Source: an uncultured Megamonas sp. (GTDB taxonomy: Bacteria > Bacillota > Negativicutes > Selenomonadales > Selenomonadaceae). Taken from it: a DNA stretch of 64,000 nt. The notes beneath the pieces were generated by a model. The model was given only the letters and a program-made list of their open reading frames with translations, was not told the DNA's origin and searched no databases. Location: assembly GCA_963558795.1 (NCBI GenBank), contig CAUWIH010000001.1, positions 3,546 to 67,545 of the forward strand, read 5' to 3'. Below, piece after piece: positions 27,150 through 31,779 of the stretch (within the stretch, counting starts at the first letter, position 1; each line of letters starts with the position of its first letter). The translations under genes and the position numbers were made by a program.

Positions 27150-27791
27150 ATGGTAAATATATATAAAATAGCTCTAGTTTGTTGTTTATTGATTGGTGTA
27201 TTTACAACAACTGCTTTAGCTAGTGTAGAAAGTGGTTATAAAGGTAATCAATCAAAAGGTTATAGTTTTGCTTATCCTATAGTAAATACAGAAGATAAGA
27301 AAGTGACTAAAGAGATAAATAACGACATTGAAAAACAAATGTTGGATTTAGAGAAAAAAATTAAAAATCATGTTTATAGTAAAGTCGATATGACATATTA
27401 TGAAAAATATGAAGATGACAATATTGTATCGTTGATGTTTTATGTAAATGCTAAAGCAAAATTTACAGAAGATGTAAAATTAAATGGCTATACGATTACG
27501 TATGATAAACATACAGGTGAACATGTGCCAATGAAAAAATATTTGAATATATCTTTAGAACAATTACAACAAGCCTTGAATAATAGTAGAGCATATGCTG
27601 TAGATGGCTTAGATAATGGTGTGAATTTAGCAAAAAAAATACCATATGTAAGTACAAATTATTTTATTTGTCATGATGGCTCAATTGGTCTTTTATACCA
27701 ACCAGGGGATTTGATGGATGTAAAAGATGGTGCTTGTAAAATAGTTATTTCACCAGAGACAATAAATGAAGTTAATCATTTAAATAATTAA
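27150..27791 (+). CDS. Secreted/periplasmic protein (DUF3298/RsiV-PdaC-like, tentative)
   Basis: Sec signal peptide ending TTALA; YP, INNDI, IVSL and TYDKHTGE pattern. Confidence 0.55.
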   Translation: MVNIYKIALVCCLLIGVFTTTALASVESGYKGNQSKGYSFAYPIVNTEDKKVTKEINNDIEKQMLDLEKKIKNHVYSKVDMTYYEKYEDDNIVSLMFYVNAKAKFTEDVKLNGYTITYDKHTGEHVPMKKYLNISLEQLQQALNNSRAYAVDGLDNGVNLAKKIPYVSTNYFICHDGSIGLLYQPGDLMDVKDGACKIVISPETINEVNHLNN

Positions 27792-27810
27792 TAAAAATGG
27801 TGGTGATACA

Positions 27811-29073
27811 ATGGAAAATTATGAGCCTTTGGCAATATTAGTTTTTATTGTATTTTTAGTAACAGTAGGATTAATTATTACCAAAAAAGTAGAGTTTGTA
27901 AGAGCATTGCCTGCTTTTGGGATAATTACAGCGATATTAGCAGGCGTACCTATTAGTGGTAGTGAAAACAGTATTGCTGATTTTGTGATTGTACAAGGGG
28001 CAACAAGCTTATCGGAAATAATGTTTATTTATATTTTAGCGATGATGTTTGCTTGCTTTTTATTAGATTGTGGTGTAGACAAAATCATTGATTATTTATT
28101 TATGCATTATTGTATAAATAATTTAAAATCAATTGTGTGGATAGTAAGTTTAATTGCAATATTATTATCTAGTGTTATAGCCAATTTAGGAGCTGTAATT
28201 TTAGTAGCGATAATATTTGTACCTATATTGTTAAAAATTGGTTTTAACAAGCAAAGTGCGGTAGCATTAATTTTATTATCAACATCTATAGGTAGTTGTT
28301 TAAATCCAGGATATCATTTGTTATATACTAAATTATTATTATGGGATATTGAACAGGTAAAAAATTATTATTATATCATGGCTACTTTTGGTATGATAGC
28401 GCTGATTACTTTTATTGGGATAAATATAAAATATGTAAATGGACAAAATTGTAATACTGTAGAAAAAATGAAAGTAAATTGGCCATTATTATTAGTTATT
28501 ATTATTCCAGTAGTTATAATGATGATATTTAATCTAAATATTGAATGTGCGATTATTTTAGCATTATCATATGGATTGTTAGTAAATGGCTCGAAAAATC
28601 CATTTATGGATATGTTAGAATTATTAAAATTAGCGATAGCACAATCAATAAATGTGATAATTTTATTAGCGTCAGTAGGGATTTTTATGCATGCCGTAAA
28701 GACTCCTGAAGTAATAAATTTAATGGCACCGTTACTTTTAAAATTAATGCCTAATACGCCAATACAATGTTTGTTATTTTTTACTGTTTTATCACCATTA
28801 GTACTCTATAAAGGCCCATTTAATTTACAAGGTATGGGTGCGGGATTAAGTTCTGTAATTATAGCATCAACTAGTATGAATCCGATGGTTCTTGCTATGG
28901 CTTTGTTATCGTTAAATAATTTACGAAAAATGATGGACCCTTTGGATACACAAAATATAGCTTTAATGCAATATGTAGAAGTAGATACAAATTTAGTAAT
29001 AAAGAAAATATTACCATATGCTTTGGGAATAAATTATTTTATGTTGTTTTATGCCTTAGTTGCAGTAATTTAA
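27811..29073 (+). CDS. Polytopic membrane transporter (ion-transporter superfamily, organic-acid permease-like)
   Basis: About 11-12 hydrophobic segments, SIGSCLNPG and PLVLYKGP; substrate unknown. Confidence 0.6.
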   Translation: MENYEPLAILVFIVFLVTVGLIITKKVEFVRALPAFGIITAILAGVPISGSENSIADFVIVQGATSLSEIMFIYILAMMFACFLLDCGVDKIIDYLFMHYCINNLKSIVWIVSLIAILLSSVIANLGAVILVAIIFVPILLKIGFNKQSAVALILLSTSIGSCLNPGYHLLYTKLLLWDIEQVKNYYYIMATFGMIALITFIGINIKYVNGQNCNTVEKMKVNWPLLLVIIIPVVIMMIFNLNIECAIILALSYGLLVNGSKNPFMDMLELLKLAIAQSINVIILLASVGIFMHAVKTPEVINLMAPLLLKLMPNTPIQCLLFFTVLSPLVLYKGPFNLQGMGAGLSSVIIASTSMNPMVLAMALLSLNNLRKMMDPLDTQNIALMQYVEVDTNLVIKKILPYALGINYFMLFYALVAVI

Positions 29074-29077
29074 TACA

Positions 29078-29119
29078 AAAAAAGCATTTTCTATAAATTC
29101 ATATAGAAAATGCTTTTTT
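29078..29119. terminator. Bidirectional terminator
   Basis: AAAAAAGCATTTTCTATA...TATAGAAAATGCTTTTTT perfect 18-bp inverted repeat. Confidence 0.85.
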
Positions 29120-29130
29120 ATTTTAGCTAA

Positions 29131-29820
29131 TTATTTTTTACTTACAGGTTCAATATCTTCTTTAACCCATAATTCATTATGTTCTTTAGCAATGTGCATA
29201 GCTAAACGACCATTACCAAACATACAGATAAATTCTTTCCAGTTATAAATACCGAGAGGAATATGACCAAATACGACACAAAGAGTAAGACCAATACCTA
29301 CTACTAAATGAATCATATCAGCCCAATAAGCGATTTGTTTTGGTACAAGTGGTAATGCGATATATAAAATTAGACCAGTTACAACAATGATGATAGTACC
29401 AAAGAATACCATAACACCCATCATTTTTTGTCCAGAGTTCATTTTACGCATTGGAGGAACAGGGATTTTTTTCCCTAAAAACATTTTCTGTGGATAACCG
29501 CCACCCACTTTGAGCCAGTCAACATCGCGTTTGCTCCAATCAAAGATTTCACGCCAGAAAGCAGCAACACGTTTTGGTTGGAAGAAGAAAAACCAAACAC
29601 AAGAAAGTGTTAAAATCCATGCACCGATAATATGAATTTGCATCACAAGATGCATAAAAGAATCACCTAAAGGGTAACCGAAAGAATATAAGAACGGACG
29701 TAAGAATAATACAATTCCAGTAAATGCGGCAGGCAAGAAGCCTAGAACAAGACACCAGTGAAATAATCTAGTCGCTAAGGAGTGTTTTAATACAATAGCG
29801 TTATTATCAAAATCTTGCAT
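29131..29820 (-). CDS. Di-heme cytochrome b membrane anchor (FdnI/HyaC-like) of the hydrogenase
   Basis: Four TM helices with His in RLFHW, QIHI, MIHL and FGHI; KMNSGQK loop. Confidence 0.85.
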   Translation of the reverse strand: MQDFDNNAIVLKHSLATRLFHWCLVLGFLPAAFTGIVLFLRPFLYSFGYPLGDSFMHLVMQIHIIGAWILTLSCVWFFFFQPKRVAAFWREIFDWSKRDVDWLKVGGGYPQKMFLGKKIPVPPMRKMNSGQKMMGVMVFFGTIIIVVTGLILYIALPLVPKQIAYWADMIHLVVGIGLTLCVVFGHIPLGIYNWKEFICMFGNGRLAMHIAKEHNELWVKEDIEPVSKK

Positions 29821-29840
29821 GATTGCCTCCTTGTATACAA

Positions 29841-30146
29841 TTAAATTTTAGTACGATCAATATATTTTGTATGGAATAACTGTTCAGCTAGAGGACTAAG
29901 TGGTTCTTTAGCAAGTTTATCATACATAGCTAATAAGCTTTTATTATGATGACTTTGTCTGAAGGCTTGTTTTTCGTCATCTTGATATAATCCAGCAGCA
30001 CGCATTTTGATATATTTATTACGGTCTTGAACAATATCAGTAACACTATAAGCACCAGTCCAAAGTATAGCAGTCAAAATACCTGCCATACCTAAAAATT
30101 CGCGTCGGGAAACAGTTATTGCCTTTTCAATATAATCATATTTCAT
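29841..30146 (-). CDS. hydB: [FeFe] hydrogenase small subunit with twin-arginine signal/anchor
   Basis: SRREFL Tat motif plus hydrophobic stretch; R..GLY..D, SHHN..L..MY and LFHT.Y small-subunit motifs. Confidence 0.88.
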   Translation of the reverse strand: MKYDYIEKAITVSRREFLGMAGILTAILWTGAYSVTDIVQDRNKYIKMRAAGLYQDDEKQAFRQSHHNKSLLAMYDKLAKEPLSPLAEQLFHTKYIDRTKI

Positions 30147-30172
30147 GTCAATATATACTCACTTTCGTAAAA

Positions 30173-31429
30173 TTACCATGGTAAGATAGCTTTGAATTTG
30201 TCAATCCAAGAAGTACCCATAGGATTGATAGGCTGACCACCGCCATTTACGCAACCACCAGGGCAGTTCATAACTTCGATGAAATGATATGGAGAAGTAC
30301 CGTTTTCCACTTCAGCTAATAATGGTTCTACGTTTTTAGTACCATGAACAACTGCTACATTTAAAGTAATTTCTTTATCGCTATTAGCTAATTTGATAGG
30401 AACTTGAGCAGTTTTTACTTTTTCTAGTCCACGAACAGGAGTGTAATTGAGATTAGGTAATTCAGTGCCAGTTAATTCAAAATAAGCTGTACGTAAAGCT
30501 GCTTCCATAACCCCACCAGTAGTACCGAAAATTGTACCTGCACCTGTATATTCAGCTAAAGGATTGTCTTTTTCTTCAGATGGCGTTACATTGCGTAAAT
30601 CAATGTTTAATTTTTTTAGTAATCTAGCTAAGTCTCTAGTAGTGAGAACAATATCAGTATCTTGATATGTAGCTGTATGACCATGTTGTTTCCAGTAATC
30701 AGCAGCAGATGTAAATTCTGGGCGAGATGCTTCGAATTTTTTAGCTGTACAAGGATAAACACCAACACAATAAATATTTTCAGGTTCTGTATGCCAAACT
30801 TCAGTAGCACCGTAAATTTTTACAACAGGGCCTGTCATACCTTGTGGAGATTTTGCAGAAGATAAATGATTGATAAGATTTGGGTGATATAATTCAACAT
30901 AGCGAACCCAAGATGGACAACAAGATGTGAACTGTGGTAATGGGCCTAATTCATGATGAGAAGGTTCATTTAATAAATATTTTTTAATTTTAGCAATAAG
31001 TTCAGTACCTTCTTCTAAAATAGTGTTGTCAGCAGCAAAATTTACATCCATAATTTTAAATCCTGCTTGTTTTAAAGCACCATATAATTGTTCAGTAACT
31101 AAAGAGCCTGGTTCCATATTGAACTCTTCACCTAAAGCTACACGAACAGCAGGTGCAACTGTAGCAACCACAGTTAATTGTTTGTTTTGGAGCTTTTCGA
31201 TTACAACGTCCACCGGATCAAAAGTATCTTCAATAGCACCAAATGGGCAGTTTACAAGACATTGTCCGCATTGTAAACATTTTGTGTTGTTGATGTGATG
31301 CGTAGCACCATAGCTACCCTCGATAGCATTAGTAGGACAAAATGATTTACATGAATCGCAACCTTTACATATTGATGGGTTAATATGGATAAGTTCGTTC
31401 AATTCATTCTGTTGATAAGTATTATTCAC
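30173..31429 (-). CDS. hydA: [FeFe] hydrogenase large subunit (2x[4Fe-4S] plus H-cluster domain)
   Basis: CKGCDSCKSFCP and CLQCGQCLVNCP; H-cluster motifs FTSCCPSW, YPCTAKKFE, EVMNCPGGCVNGGGQP. GTG start after AAAGGAGG. Confidence 0.95.
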   Translation of the reverse strand: MNNTYQQNELNELIHINPSICKGCDSCKSFCPTNAIEGSYGATHHINNTKCLQCGQCLVNCPFGAIEDTFDPVDVVIEKLQNKQLTVVATVAPAVRVALGEEFNMEPGSLVTEQLYGALKQAGFKIMDVNFAADNTILEEGTELIAKIKKYLLNEPSHHELGPLPQFTSCCPSWVRYVELYHPNLINHLSSAKSPQGMTGPVVKIYGATEVWHTEPENIYCVGVYPCTAKKFEASRPEFTSAADYWKQHGHTATYQDTDIVLTTRDLARLLKKLNIDLRNVTPSEEKDNPLAEYTGAGTIFGTTGGVMEAALRTAYFELTGTELPNLNYTPVRGLEKVKTAQVPIKLANSDKEITLNVAVVHGTKNVEPLLAEVENGTSPYHFIEVMNCPGGCVNGGGQPINPMGTSWIDKFKAILPW

Positions 31430-31719
31430 ATATATAACCTCCTTTGTAATTTATTAGCTATATTTATTATACTAGAAGATATATGCACGAACAAACCCCG
31501 TGGGGGGATATTTTTTACAAAATGTAAATATAAATATAAAGATATATTAATATAAGATAATAATTATTAATTAATAAACAAAAAAATTAACAATATTGAT
31601 TAATTGCATACATAGTTGAACAGTGGGATTGTACAAAGTTGTATTATTTGTGTAAAAATGATGTAAAAAAGTGTTAATTTTAAAAATATAGGGTAGAGGG
31701 ATGAGGTATGAAAAAACAA

Positions 31720-31759
31720 AAAAAGCACTGATTAAAAAATAAAATAATCAGTGCTTTTT
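31720..31759 (-). terminator. Terminator of the aminopeptidase gene
   Basis: AAAAAGCACTGATT...AATCAGTGCTTTTT inverted repeat. Confidence 0.75.
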
Positions 31760-31779
31760 ATATATTTTAAATGTGAAAA

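What the first reader, a model, noticed from the sequence alone, without database searches (positions are those of the whole stretch)
29131..31429. Tat-exported, cytochrome b-linked [FeFe] hydrogenase next to menaquinone genes: an H2-respiration module in a gut fermenter
The operon is large subunit (no signal peptide), small subunit with SRREFL and no obvious AxA cleavage site, and a four-His di-heme cytochrome b. This is the layout of periplasmic uptake enzymes usually built on [NiFe] chemistry. The futalosine cluster ends about 2 kb away. Together they suggest H2 to menaquinone to fumarate respiration feeding succinate/propionate formation, which would make the organism an H2 sink (inference). 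No maturases or tat genes are in the window.
Basis: partly seen in the sequence, partly recalled or inferred. Interest (0 to 1): 0.6.

Follow-up and report, generated by a model that had tools for sequence, protein, structure and literature searches.

The report
Cytochrome b-anchored periplasmic [FeFe] hydrogenase
A gut Megamonas bacterium carries a three-gene cassette for an iron-only hydrogenase that is exported across the cell membrane and wired to the vitamin-K2 (menaquinone) pool through its own cytochrome b. The design is real, but it is already described in Sporomusa, Syntrophomonas and Shewanella, and whether it consumes or releases hydrogen here is not known.

Summary
Window 29131-31429 (minus strand) is an intact hydA-hydB-hydC operon. 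HydA has all H-cluster and F-cluster motifs and no signal peptide. HydB carries a twin-arginine signal (SRREFL). HydC is a four-helix FdnI-type cytochrome b with four invariant His and a conserved quinone loop.

- The architecture is already described: S. wolfei Hyd2ABC, S. ovata HydA2B2C2, Shewanella HydABC. Earlier notes of this scan record it on other DNA too (e1-2497746, e1-1973352, e1-4156624).
- The gene order is conserved in all 72 of 77 related loci that retain the upstream flank.
- The nearness to the futalosine genes is coincidental.
- The genome also has a canonical Tat-exported, cytochrome b-linked [NiFe] uptake hydrogenase. That enzyme is near-universal in the family, so the H2-sink idea does not depend on this operon.
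- The cassette is accessory. It is a clean 2,654-bp indel, missing at the same site in four other Megamonas genomes.
- Direction is unresolved. Two of the three studied relatives are thought to evolve H2.

Verdict: a new member of a known kind, of modest interest.

The parts
30173..31429 (-). hydA, [FeFe] hydrogenase large subunit (418 aa, GTG start). It has two [4Fe-4S] F-cluster motifs (aa 21-32 and 51-62) and H-cluster motifs P1 (aa 167-174), P2 (aa 224-233, Tyr in place of the usual Met) and P3 (aa 385-400). It has no signal peptide.
31438..31443 (-). Shine-Dalgarno AGGAGG, 8 nt upstream of the hydA GTG.
   Evidence: Read directly from the sequence printed
29841..30146 (-). hydB, small subunit (101 aa). 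The twin-arginine motif SRREFL (aa 13-18, nt 30093-30110) is followed by the hydrophobic stretch FLGMAGILTAILWTGAY (aa 17-33) and then the Fe_hyd_SSU domain (aa 43-98).
29131..29820 (-). hydC, four-helix FdnI-type di-haem cytochrome b (229 aa). The proposed haem ligands are H21 and H186 (cytoplasmic-side haem) and H63 and H171 (periplasmic-side haem). The invariant K126-x-N128-x-G130-Q131-K132 loop aligns with the FdnI quinone-site loop.
29078..29119 (.). Bidirectional intrinsic terminator hairpin (18-bp stem flanked by A and T runs). It is shared by hydC and the convergent transporter gene, and it is also present at the empty site of the other Megamonas genomes.
31430..31779 (-). 350-nt upstream region that belongs to the cassette. 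It holds a terminator-like hairpin just after the M18 peptidase stop (about 31717-31759), promoter-like hexamers TTTACA-17-TACAAT (31656-31628) and a TATAAT about 35 nt before the start codon. No Rfam family matched and the fold is not significant.
29126..31779 (.). The 2,654-bp presence/absence segment: hydCBA plus its upstream region. In G116, G071, G089 and G047 the transporter gene and its terminator directly abut the M18 peptidase stop codon.

Best explanation
The operon encodes a HydABC-type membrane-bound [FeFe] hydrogenase whose catalytic site faces the periplasm. Megamonas is a diderm Negativicute, so it has a periplasm.

Assembly (inferred). HydA receives its H-cluster in the cytoplasm from HydE/G/F, which are encoded next to the second, cytoplasmic hydrogenase. 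HydA binds HydB, and the folded dimer is exported by TatAC on HydB's twin-arginine signal. HydB's hydrophobic N-terminal stretch may stay uncleaved as the anchor helix.

Electron path (inferred). The dimer docks on HydC. Electrons run from the H-cluster through two [4Fe-4S] clusters to the periplasmic-side haem b (H63/H171), then to the cytoplasmic-side haem b (H21/H186), and on to a menaquinone site on the cytoplasmic face.

Energetics. This geometry is a redox loop. H2 oxidation outside coupled to menaquinone reduction inside builds proton-motive force. The reverse reaction consumes it.

My commitment for this organism. In the H2-rich gut the enzyme mainly works as an H2:menaquinone oxidoreductase that feeds FrdCAB (fumarate to succinate to propionate). 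That includes recapturing H2 made by the cell's own cytoplasmic NuoF-linked [FeFe] hydrogenase. It works as a nickel-independent partner of the [NiFe] HupSLC.

Shown here: gene content, motifs, fold, synteny and the genomic repertoire. Inferred: export, haem and quinone binding, and above all the direction.
For: - All catalytic and cluster motifs are intact.
- The Tat motif [ST]RREF is conserved in all 64 HydB homologues aligned.
- tatA/tatC and hydEGF are present.
- HydC has four invariant His in transmembrane helices. Its best sequence and fold match is FdnI.
- The loop carrying the NSGQK motif has 11 K+R, against 1 and 0 in the other two loops. By the positive-inside rule this places it in the cytoplasm.
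- The hydA-hydB-hydC order is kept in all 72 of 77 loci with enough flank, in Negativicutes and Syntrophaceae/Smithella.
- The S. ovata orthologue (L054; 68, 64 and 56% identity) matches the HydA2B2C2 that was detected in an H2-oxidising membrane band (PMC9430772).
- The genome has frdCAB and futalosine genes but no molybdopterin enzyme, hence no formate dehydrogenase to feed a Shewanella-type formate-to-H2 route.
- From established redox potentials, H2 (-414 mV) to menaquinone (-74 mV) is strongly downhill.
Against: - Direction is untested.
- In S. wolfei (PMC5101538) and S. oneidensis (the 2026 preprint, which cites Meshulam-Simon 2007 for no physiological H2 oxidation by HydAB) the same architecture is assigned to H2 evolution from menaquinol.
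- The genome already has a [NiFe] uptake enzyme.
- HydABC is an add-on, not a replacement: 10 of 11 HydC-positive family genomes also have the [NiFe] enzyme. This hints at a different role.
- Six other Megamonas genomes do without it.
- Export, haem content and quinone reactivity were not measured.
Confidence: 0.5

Rival explanations
1. Same complex, opposite direction. HydC oxidises menaquinol and HydAB reduces protons in the periplasm, at the cost of proton-motive force. The enzyme would act as an electron-overflow valve when fumarate or CO2 is limiting, as proposed for Shewanella HydABC and for reverse electron transfer in S. wolfei.
For: - Two of the three studied relatives are assigned to H2 evolution (PMC5101538; bioRxiv 10.64898/2026.10.15.759383).
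- The family is common in the obligate syntrophs Smithella and Syntrophaceae.
- HydABC coexists with a [NiFe] uptake enzyme in 10 of 11 family genomes, as it does in Shewanella and S. ovata.
- [FeFe] enzymes are generally biased toward H2 production (established knowledge).
Against: - Menaquinol to H2 is about 340 mV uphill at standard conditions, so it is feasible only at very low H2. Gut isolates build up H2 to several per cent (10.64898/2026.06.24.733704).
- The organism already has a cytoplasmic NuoF-linked [FeFe] hydrogenase for H2 release and a fumarate reductase as a quinol sink.
- It has no formate dehydrogenase to drive a Shewanella-type route.
Confidence: 0.3
2. A truly bidirectional buffer. 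The complex runs either way with the redox state of the menaquinone pool and the local H2 pressure, balancing electron flow rather than serving one route.
For: - SoHydAB is bidirectional in vitro (2026 preprint).
- The redox-loop geometry is reversible in principle (FdnI fold).
- The same module occurs in fumarate respirers, acetogens and syntrophs.
Against: There is no direct evidence. It is hard to separate from the two readings above without physiology.
Confidence: 0.15
3. HydC is only a membrane dock, or is unrelated to quinones, and HydAB passes electrons to some other periplasmic carrier. Alternatively the cassette is silent cargo.
For: - Desulfovibrio HydAB uses a soluble cytochrome c3 (established knowledge).
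- The cassette is absent from close relatives.
Against: - Four haem-ligand His and the FdnI quinone-loop residues are invariant across 24 diverse HydC sequences.
- Three-gene synteny is strict.
- All three ORFs are intact, with a strong ribosome-binding site.
- Near-identical HydC (99%) is recorded on 18 contigs.
Confidence: 0.05

Closest known systems
Sporomusa ovata HydA2B2C2 (SOV_3c02090/02080 plus cytochrome b; Kremp, Roth and Mueller 2022, PMC9430772)
   Same: - Also a Negativicute.
- Same hydA-hydB-hydC order, with the Tat signal on HydB and an FdnI-like cytochrome b.
- The only full S. ovata hydABC locus found (L054) is 68, 64 and 56% identical for A, B and C.
- It also coexists with a cytochrome b-linked [NiFe] HupSLC.
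- Its subunits were found in an H2-oxidising membrane band.
   Different: - The host is an acetogen, and the proposed acceptor chain ends at methylene-THF reductase rather than fumarate reductase.
- Equating L054 with HydA2B2C2 is my inference, since no locus tags were available here.
- Sporomusa species carry two or three paralogous loci, whereas this genome has one.
Syntrophomonas wolfei Hyd2ABC (Crable et al. 2016, PMC5101538)
   Same: A membrane-bound three-subunit [FeFe] hydrogenase with a HydC membrane subunit. It is proposed to be linked to the menaquinone pool through a quinone loop.
   Different: [quoted passage not shown]
- The host is a monoderm syntroph.
Shewanella oneidensis HydABC (hydC formerly called 'fdh'; bioRxiv 10.64898/2026.10.15.759383)
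   Same: - An M2(D)-type HydA plus a Tat-bearing HydB plus an operon-encoded cytochrome b linked to menaquinone.
- It coexists with a [NiFe] Hya enzyme.
- An N-terminal HydB helix was proposed to enter the membrane.
   Different: - hydGXEF lie in the same operon there, but here the maturases are on another contig.
- There the electrons come from formate dehydrogenase, which this genome lacks.
- Its in vivo role is H2 evolution.
Desulfovibrio vulgaris/desulfuricans periplasmic HydAB (PDB 1HFE)
   Same: It is the closest solved structure to HydA (E 1.5e-95). It has the same split into large and small subunits, with export on the small subunit's Tat signal.
   Different: - It is soluble, its signal is cleaved, and it reduces cytochrome c3.
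- It has no cytochrome b gene.
- Its P2 motif has Met where this HydA has Tyr.
Wolinella succinogenes [NiFe] HydABC and E. coli formate dehydrogenase-N (FdnGHI, 1KQF)
   Same: They have the same bioenergetic logic. A periplasmic catalytic dimer sits on a di-haem cytochrome b that reduces menaquinone on the cytoplasmic side, forming a redox loop that feeds fumarate or nitrate reductase. HydC's best fold match is FdnI.
   Different: - The catalytic subunits are unrelated ([NiFe] or Mo-bisPGD).
- Their anchor helix is C-terminal on the electron-transfer subunit. Here the only candidate anchor is HydB's N-terminal signal.

Membership tests
Heterodimeric Tat-exported [FeFe] hydrogenase (M2(D) type; HydDB group A1, called 'A5' in 10.64898/2026.06.24.733704) | H-cluster motifs P1 (TSCCP), P2 (xPCxxKxxE) and P3 (ExMxCxxGCxxGGGQP) | tested here: met
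   TIGR02512 scores above its cut-off. P2 has Tyr in place of Met, as in 17 of 68 family members.
Heterodimeric Tat-exported [FeFe] hydrogenase (M2(D) type; HydDB group A1, called 'A5' in 10.64898/2026.06.24.733704) | Two N-terminal [4Fe-4S] F-clusters and no further accessory domains | tested here: met
   Two CxxCxxCxxxCP motifs, Fer4 hits, and alignment to 1HFE_L from residue 13.
Heterodimeric Tat-exported [FeFe] hydrogenase (M2(D) type; HydDB group A1, called 'A5' in 10.64898/2026.06.24.733704) | A separate small-subunit gene (Fe_hyd_SSU) that carries the only twin-arginine signal | tested here: met
   PF02256 at 2e-17, SRREFL, and no signal on HydA.
Heterodimeric Tat-exported [FeFe] hydrogenase (M2(D) type; HydDB group A1, called 'A5' in 10.64898/2026.06.24.733704) | HydE, HydF and HydG maturases and a TatA/TatC translocase in the genome | tested here: met
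   all above the curated cut-offs.
Heterodimeric Tat-exported [FeFe] hydrogenase (M2(D) type; HydDB group A1, called 'A5' in 10.64898/2026.06.24.733704) | Periplasmic location of the mature enzyme | not testable with these tools
   Needs cell fractionation or reporter fusions.
Cytochrome b-linked membrane-bound [FeFe] HydABC (S. ovata HydA2B2C2, S. wolfei Hyd2ABC, S. oneidensis HydABC) | A third, co-oriented gene directly downstream that encodes a Ni_hydr_CYTB/FdnI-family cytochrome b | tested here: met
   There is a 20-nt gap after hydB.
Cytochrome b-linked membrane-bound [FeFe] HydABC (S. ovata HydA2B2C2, S. wolfei Hyd2ABC, S. oneidensis HydABC) | Orthology and conserved synteny with a described member | tested here: met
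   The S. ovata DSM 2662 locus L054 has the same order, with 68, 64 and 56% identity. All 72 loci with a usable flank keep the A-B-C order.
Cytochrome b-linked membrane-bound [FeFe] HydABC (S. ovata HydA2B2C2, S. wolfei Hyd2ABC, S. oneidensis HydABC) | Sequence homology of HydC to the S. wolfei and S. oneidensis HydC proteins | not tested
   Their sequences could not be obtained.
Cytochrome b-linked membrane-bound [FeFe] HydABC (S. ovata HydA2B2C2, S. wolfei Hyd2ABC, S. oneidensis HydABC) | Electron exchange with the menaquinone pool | not testable with these tools
   The only sequence proxy is the invariant KxNxGQK loop aligned to the FdnI quinone-site loop.
FdnI/HyaC-type di-haem cytochrome b (PF01292) | Four transmembrane helices with four bis-His haem ligands: one in helix 1, one in helix 2 and two in helix 4 | tested here: met
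   H21, H63, H171 and H186 are invariant. The helices run 15-39, 53-80, 129-153 and 161-192. The fold match to 1KQF_C has TM 0.72/0.76. H57, which phmmer paired with FdnI H57, is not conserved.
Group 1 respiratory [NiFe] uptake hydrogenase (W. succinogenes HydABC type) | A [NiFe] large subunit (PF00374) as the catalytic subunit | tested here: not met
   The catalytic subunit here is [FeFe]. A true group 1 [NiFe] operon is on contig C34. The window operon may work like one but is not a member.

The most novel reading that the evidence does not exclude
In this family the Tat signal of HydB is never cleaved. Its unusually conserved hydrophobic stretch (LWTGAY) is the single transmembrane helix that docks HydAB onto HydC, taking the place of the C-terminal tail anchor of [NiFe] and formate-dehydrogenase electron-transfer subunits. 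In fumarate-respiring gut Selenomonadaceae the complex would then be a genuine respiratory uptake [FeFe] hydrogenase. It would need no nickel and would give high flux at the high H2 pressure of the gut, giving the species that carry the cassette an edge as H2 sinks.
Probability: 0.3. Interest if true: 0.5.

Novelty: new member of a known kind. Interest (0 to 1): 0.3.

Why it matters
Those catalogues usually count group A [FeFe] enzymes as H2 producers, and they assign selenomonad H2 uptake to the [NiFe] enzyme alone.

A cytochrome b-anchored, outward-facing [FeFe] enzyme in a fumarate respirer could go either way. If it takes up H2, the species that carry it are stronger H2 sinks than predicted, and their uptake would not depend on nickel supply. 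If it releases H2, they are leakier.

This Megamonas species could be compared with a relative such as M. hypermegale, whose syntenic site is probably empty. That would be a natural with/without pair for settling the direction of this enzyme class. The architecture itself is not new.

Tried and rejected
I obtained genomic context through the search for related loci instead.
- A profile search with 24 HydC sequences listed only close relatives among its top 120. It did not surface the S. wolfei or Shewanella proteins, so direct homology to those two remains untested.
- The ESM Atlas look-up gave only generic cytochrome b561 and formate-dehydrogenase-gamma clusters.
- Rfam found nothing credible, and the 5' leader folds no better than shuffled sequence (z = -0.6). 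No riboswitch is claimed.
- I first read the clean indel as a horizontal gain. A single-gene (M18 peptidase) tree puts this genome outside a clade of the four cassette-less genomes (support 0.78). One gain or one loss therefore explains it equally well.
- The HydABC tree places the window basal within the Selenomonadaceae clade and not nested in Selenomonas. The direction of the event is left open.
- I considered the lack of AxA as proof of an uncleaved signal. I rejected this as proof because T-G-A|Y fits the signal-peptidase rules.
- The signal region is as conserved as the mature domain: 0.69 against 0.73 mean majority fraction. That is suggestive only, because hydrogenase Tat signals can also be conserved for chaperone binding.
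- I rejected a functional reading of the mqn adjacency.
- A HydDB classification could not be run.
Full report
WHAT IS THERE. Window 29131-31429 holds three minus-strand ORFs separated by 26 and 20 nt.

The first ORF, hydA (30173-31429, 418 aa, GTG start behind an AGGAGG ribosome-binding site), matches Fe_hyd_lg_C at 1e-79. It passes the NCBIfam group A [FeFe] model with 433 bits against a cut-off of 406. It has two CxxCxxCxxxCP ferredoxin motifs and the three H-cluster motifs. Its closest solved relative is the periplasmic HydA of Desulfovibrio, 1HFE_L, E 1.5e-95. It has no signal peptide.

The second ORF, hydB (29841-30146, 101 aa), is an Fe_hyd_SSU small subunit at 2e-17. It carries SRREFL followed by a 17-residue hydrophobic stretch.

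The third ORF, hydC (29131-29820, 229 aa), is a PF01292 cytochrome b at 4e-16. Its best NCBIfam hit is formate dehydrogenase gamma, below the cut-off. Its only solved sequence relative is E. coli FdnI.

An AlphaFold2 model built on 24 homologues has pLDDT 91.7 and shows four long helices. Foldseek puts FdnI (1KQF_C) first with TM 0.72/0.76, and the [NiFe] Hyd-1 cytochrome b second.

In the 24-sequence alignment H21, H63, H171 and H186 are invariant. They sit in helices 1, 2 and 4, as the FdnI haem ligands do. H57, which phmmer had paired with FdnI H57, is not conserved.

The loop K126-N128-G130-Q131-K132 is invariant and aligns with the FdnI loop N110/G112/Q113. From my memory of the 2002 FdnGHI structure paper, that loop lines the menaquinone site on the cytoplasmic side. 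It lies in a segment with 11 Lys+Arg, against 1 and 0 in the other loops, so the positive-inside rule also places it in the cytoplasm.

THE REST OF THE GENOME. The assembly is 2.14 Mb in 96 contigs and 99.99% complete. The flanking M18 aminopeptidase is 88% identical to those of Megamonas hypermegale and Candidatus M. gallistercoris, and 73-74% identical to Selenomonas.

- hydE, hydG and hydF lie on contig C32, directly after a second, 583-aa HydA that is preceded by a NuoF-like gene. This is a cytoplasmic NADH-linked or bifurcating-type enzyme.
- tatC and three tatA genes are present.
- Contig C91 ends inside frdA and contig C88 begins with the same residues. Together they give fumarate hydratase, frdC (b558 family), frdA and frdB.
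- No molybdopterin oxidoreductase was found, so there is no formate dehydrogenase.
- Contig C34 carries a textbook group 1 [NiFe] operon: a small subunit with its own Tat signal, a large subunit and a HyaC-type cytochrome b above its cut-off.

HOW WIDESPREAD. HydC homologues are abundant in Negativicutes. A scan of one genome per species returned 77 loci from Selenomonadaceae, Propionispira, Schwartzia, Sporomusa, Pelosinus, Propionispora, Dendrosporobacter, and the syntrophs Smithella and Syntrophaceae.

In all 72 loci where the upstream flank is present, hydA and hydB precede hydC in the same order. None of the 77 loci has mqn, frd or [NiFe] genes within 5 kb. Between 10 and 14 have hydE or hydG nearby.

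Within the family the module is patchy. HydC was found in 11 of 120 sampled genomes and in none of six other genomes of the same genus. The [NiFe] large subunit was found in 111 of 120 and in all six. Ten of the eleven HydC-positive genomes also have the [NiFe] enzyme, so HydABC is an addition, not a substitute.

A CLEAN INDEL. In four other Megamonas genomes the homologue of the 420-aa transporter gene (window 27811-29073) and its terminator directly abut the stop codon of the M18 peptidase. Window 29126-31779 is missing to the base.

The missing 2,654 bp contain hydCBA and 350 nt upstream. That upstream region holds a terminator-like hairpin and promoter-like hexamers. The cassette is therefore a self-contained transcription unit.

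In those genomes the mqn cluster lies elsewhere, about 540 kb away in G071. The 2-kb nearness to the futalosine genes is thus peculiar to this genome and says nothing about function.

Gain or loss cannot be decided. An M18 tree puts this genome outside a clade of the four cassette-less genomes (support 0.78). The HydABC tree puts the window at the base of the Selenomonadaceae clade.

WHAT IS ALREADY KNOWN.
- Crable et al. (PMC5101538) showed that S. wolfei Hyd2ABC is a membrane hydrogenase induced about 20-fold under syntrophic butyrate growth. They placed it in a quinone loop that produces H2 by reverse electron transfer.
- Kremp et al. [quoted passage not shown] They noted the Tat signal on HydB2.
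- A 2026 preprint (10.64898/2026.10.15.759383) characterises Shewanella HydAB. It describes HydC as the operon-encoded cytochrome b that links the enzyme to menaquinol for H2 evolution.
- Selenomonad H2/fumarate respiration is long known and is credited to the group 1d [NiFe] enzyme (PMC6776011).
- Megamonas was proposed as an H2 sink in 2014 (PMC3962364). A 2026 preprint lists it among flexible H2 producers and consumers (10.64898/2026.06.24.733704).
- Earlier notes of this scan record the same architecture on other DNA: e1-2497746, judged a known design, and e1-1973352 and e1-4156624.

MECHANISM AND DIRECTION. The anatomy supports a redox loop. H2/H+ chemistry takes place outside, electrons cross the membrane through two b haems, and quinone chemistry takes place inside.

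With E0' of -414 mV for H2, -74 mV for menaquinone and +33 mV for fumarate (established values), uptake is strongly exergonic and would build proton-motive force. The reverse reaction needs proton-motive force and very low H2.

Several points favour uptake here. The organism lives in an H2-rich habitat. It has fumarate reductase as a quinol sink. It has a cytoplasmic hydrogenase for H2 release. It has no formate dehydrogenase to drive a Shewanella-type route. I therefore favour uptake, including recapture of its own H2, at about 0.5.

Evolution stands at about 0.3. It is supported by the two best-studied relatives and by the add-on distribution beside a [NiFe] uptake enzyme. A truly bidirectional role stands at about 0.15.

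THE HydB SIGNAL. There is no AxA. The N-terminal and hydrophobic regions are about as conserved as the mature domain: mean majority fraction 0.67-0.69 against 0.73 across 64 sequences. Neither HydA nor HydB has any other hydrophobic helix.

This fits a retained signal anchor that packs against HydC, in the way the C-terminal helices of FdnH and HyaA pack against their cytochromes. However, T-G-A|Y is an acceptable signal-peptidase site, and Tat signals of hydrogenases can be conserved for other reasons. This remains a hypothesis.

VERDICT. This is a real, intact and well-defined operon, and a new member of a described enzyme class. The claim of unusualness, the weight put on the mqn neighbourhood and the confident uptake reading are not supported as stated. 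Interest is modest, at 0.3. The open question is the physiological direction of this enzyme class in gut fumarate respirers, and comparing this species with its cassette-less relatives offers a convenient way to test it.

Noticed in passing
window 29126-31779, against L116, L117, L118 and L119: hydCBA plus 350 nt upstream is a base-precise 2,654-bp presence/absence segment between the M18 peptidase stop codon and a shared bidirectional terminator. Four other Megamonas genomes have the empty site. Whether it was gained or lost is unresolved.
   Followed up: partly
window 27150-29073 (+): Two genes sit between the mqn operon and hydC: a 213-aa protein with a signal-peptide-like N-terminus and a 420-aa polytopic membrane protein. 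Neither has any Pfam or NCBIfam hit. The pair is conserved next to the M18 peptidase in other Megamonas genomes. It may be an undescribed transporter family.
   Followed up: partly
window 29670-29693 (HydC residues about 44-51): This HydC has an 8-residue insertion (LYSFGYPL) in the periplasmic loop between helices 1 and 2. None of the 14 other homologues aligned has it. The loop would face HydAB.
   Followed up: no
window 30755-30757 (HydA residue 225): The P2 motif reads YPC instead of MPC. The Tyr variant occurs in 17 of the 68 family HydA sequences compared, and the rest have Met. This is the subject of a separate first-reader note (e1-5211093).
   Followed up: partly
G037 (same family, 100% complete): This is the only sampled family genome with HydC but no [NiFe] large subunit at E <= 1e-30. 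It is a natural case for asking whether HydABC alone supports H2 uptake.
   Followed up: no
L053/L062/L095, L057/L059, L064/L066, L050/L083: Several Sporomusa species carry two or three paralogous hydABC loci: S. aerivorans three, and S. acidovorans, S. silvacetica and S. malonica two each.
   Followed up: no
G000 contigs C91 and C88: The fumarate hydratase-frdC-frdA-frdB locus is split across two contigs of about 2 kb that overlap within frdA. The short contigs may point to a repeated or hard-to-assemble region.
   Followed up: partly
L075, L084, L087: hydABC loci of the Negativicute type sit on contigs labelled Patescibacteria, Terriglobia and Nitrospiraceae MAGs, and the L084 and L087 loci fall inside the Negativicute part of the tree (L075 next to Sporomusa). 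Binning errors seem more likely than gene transfer.
   Followed up: no
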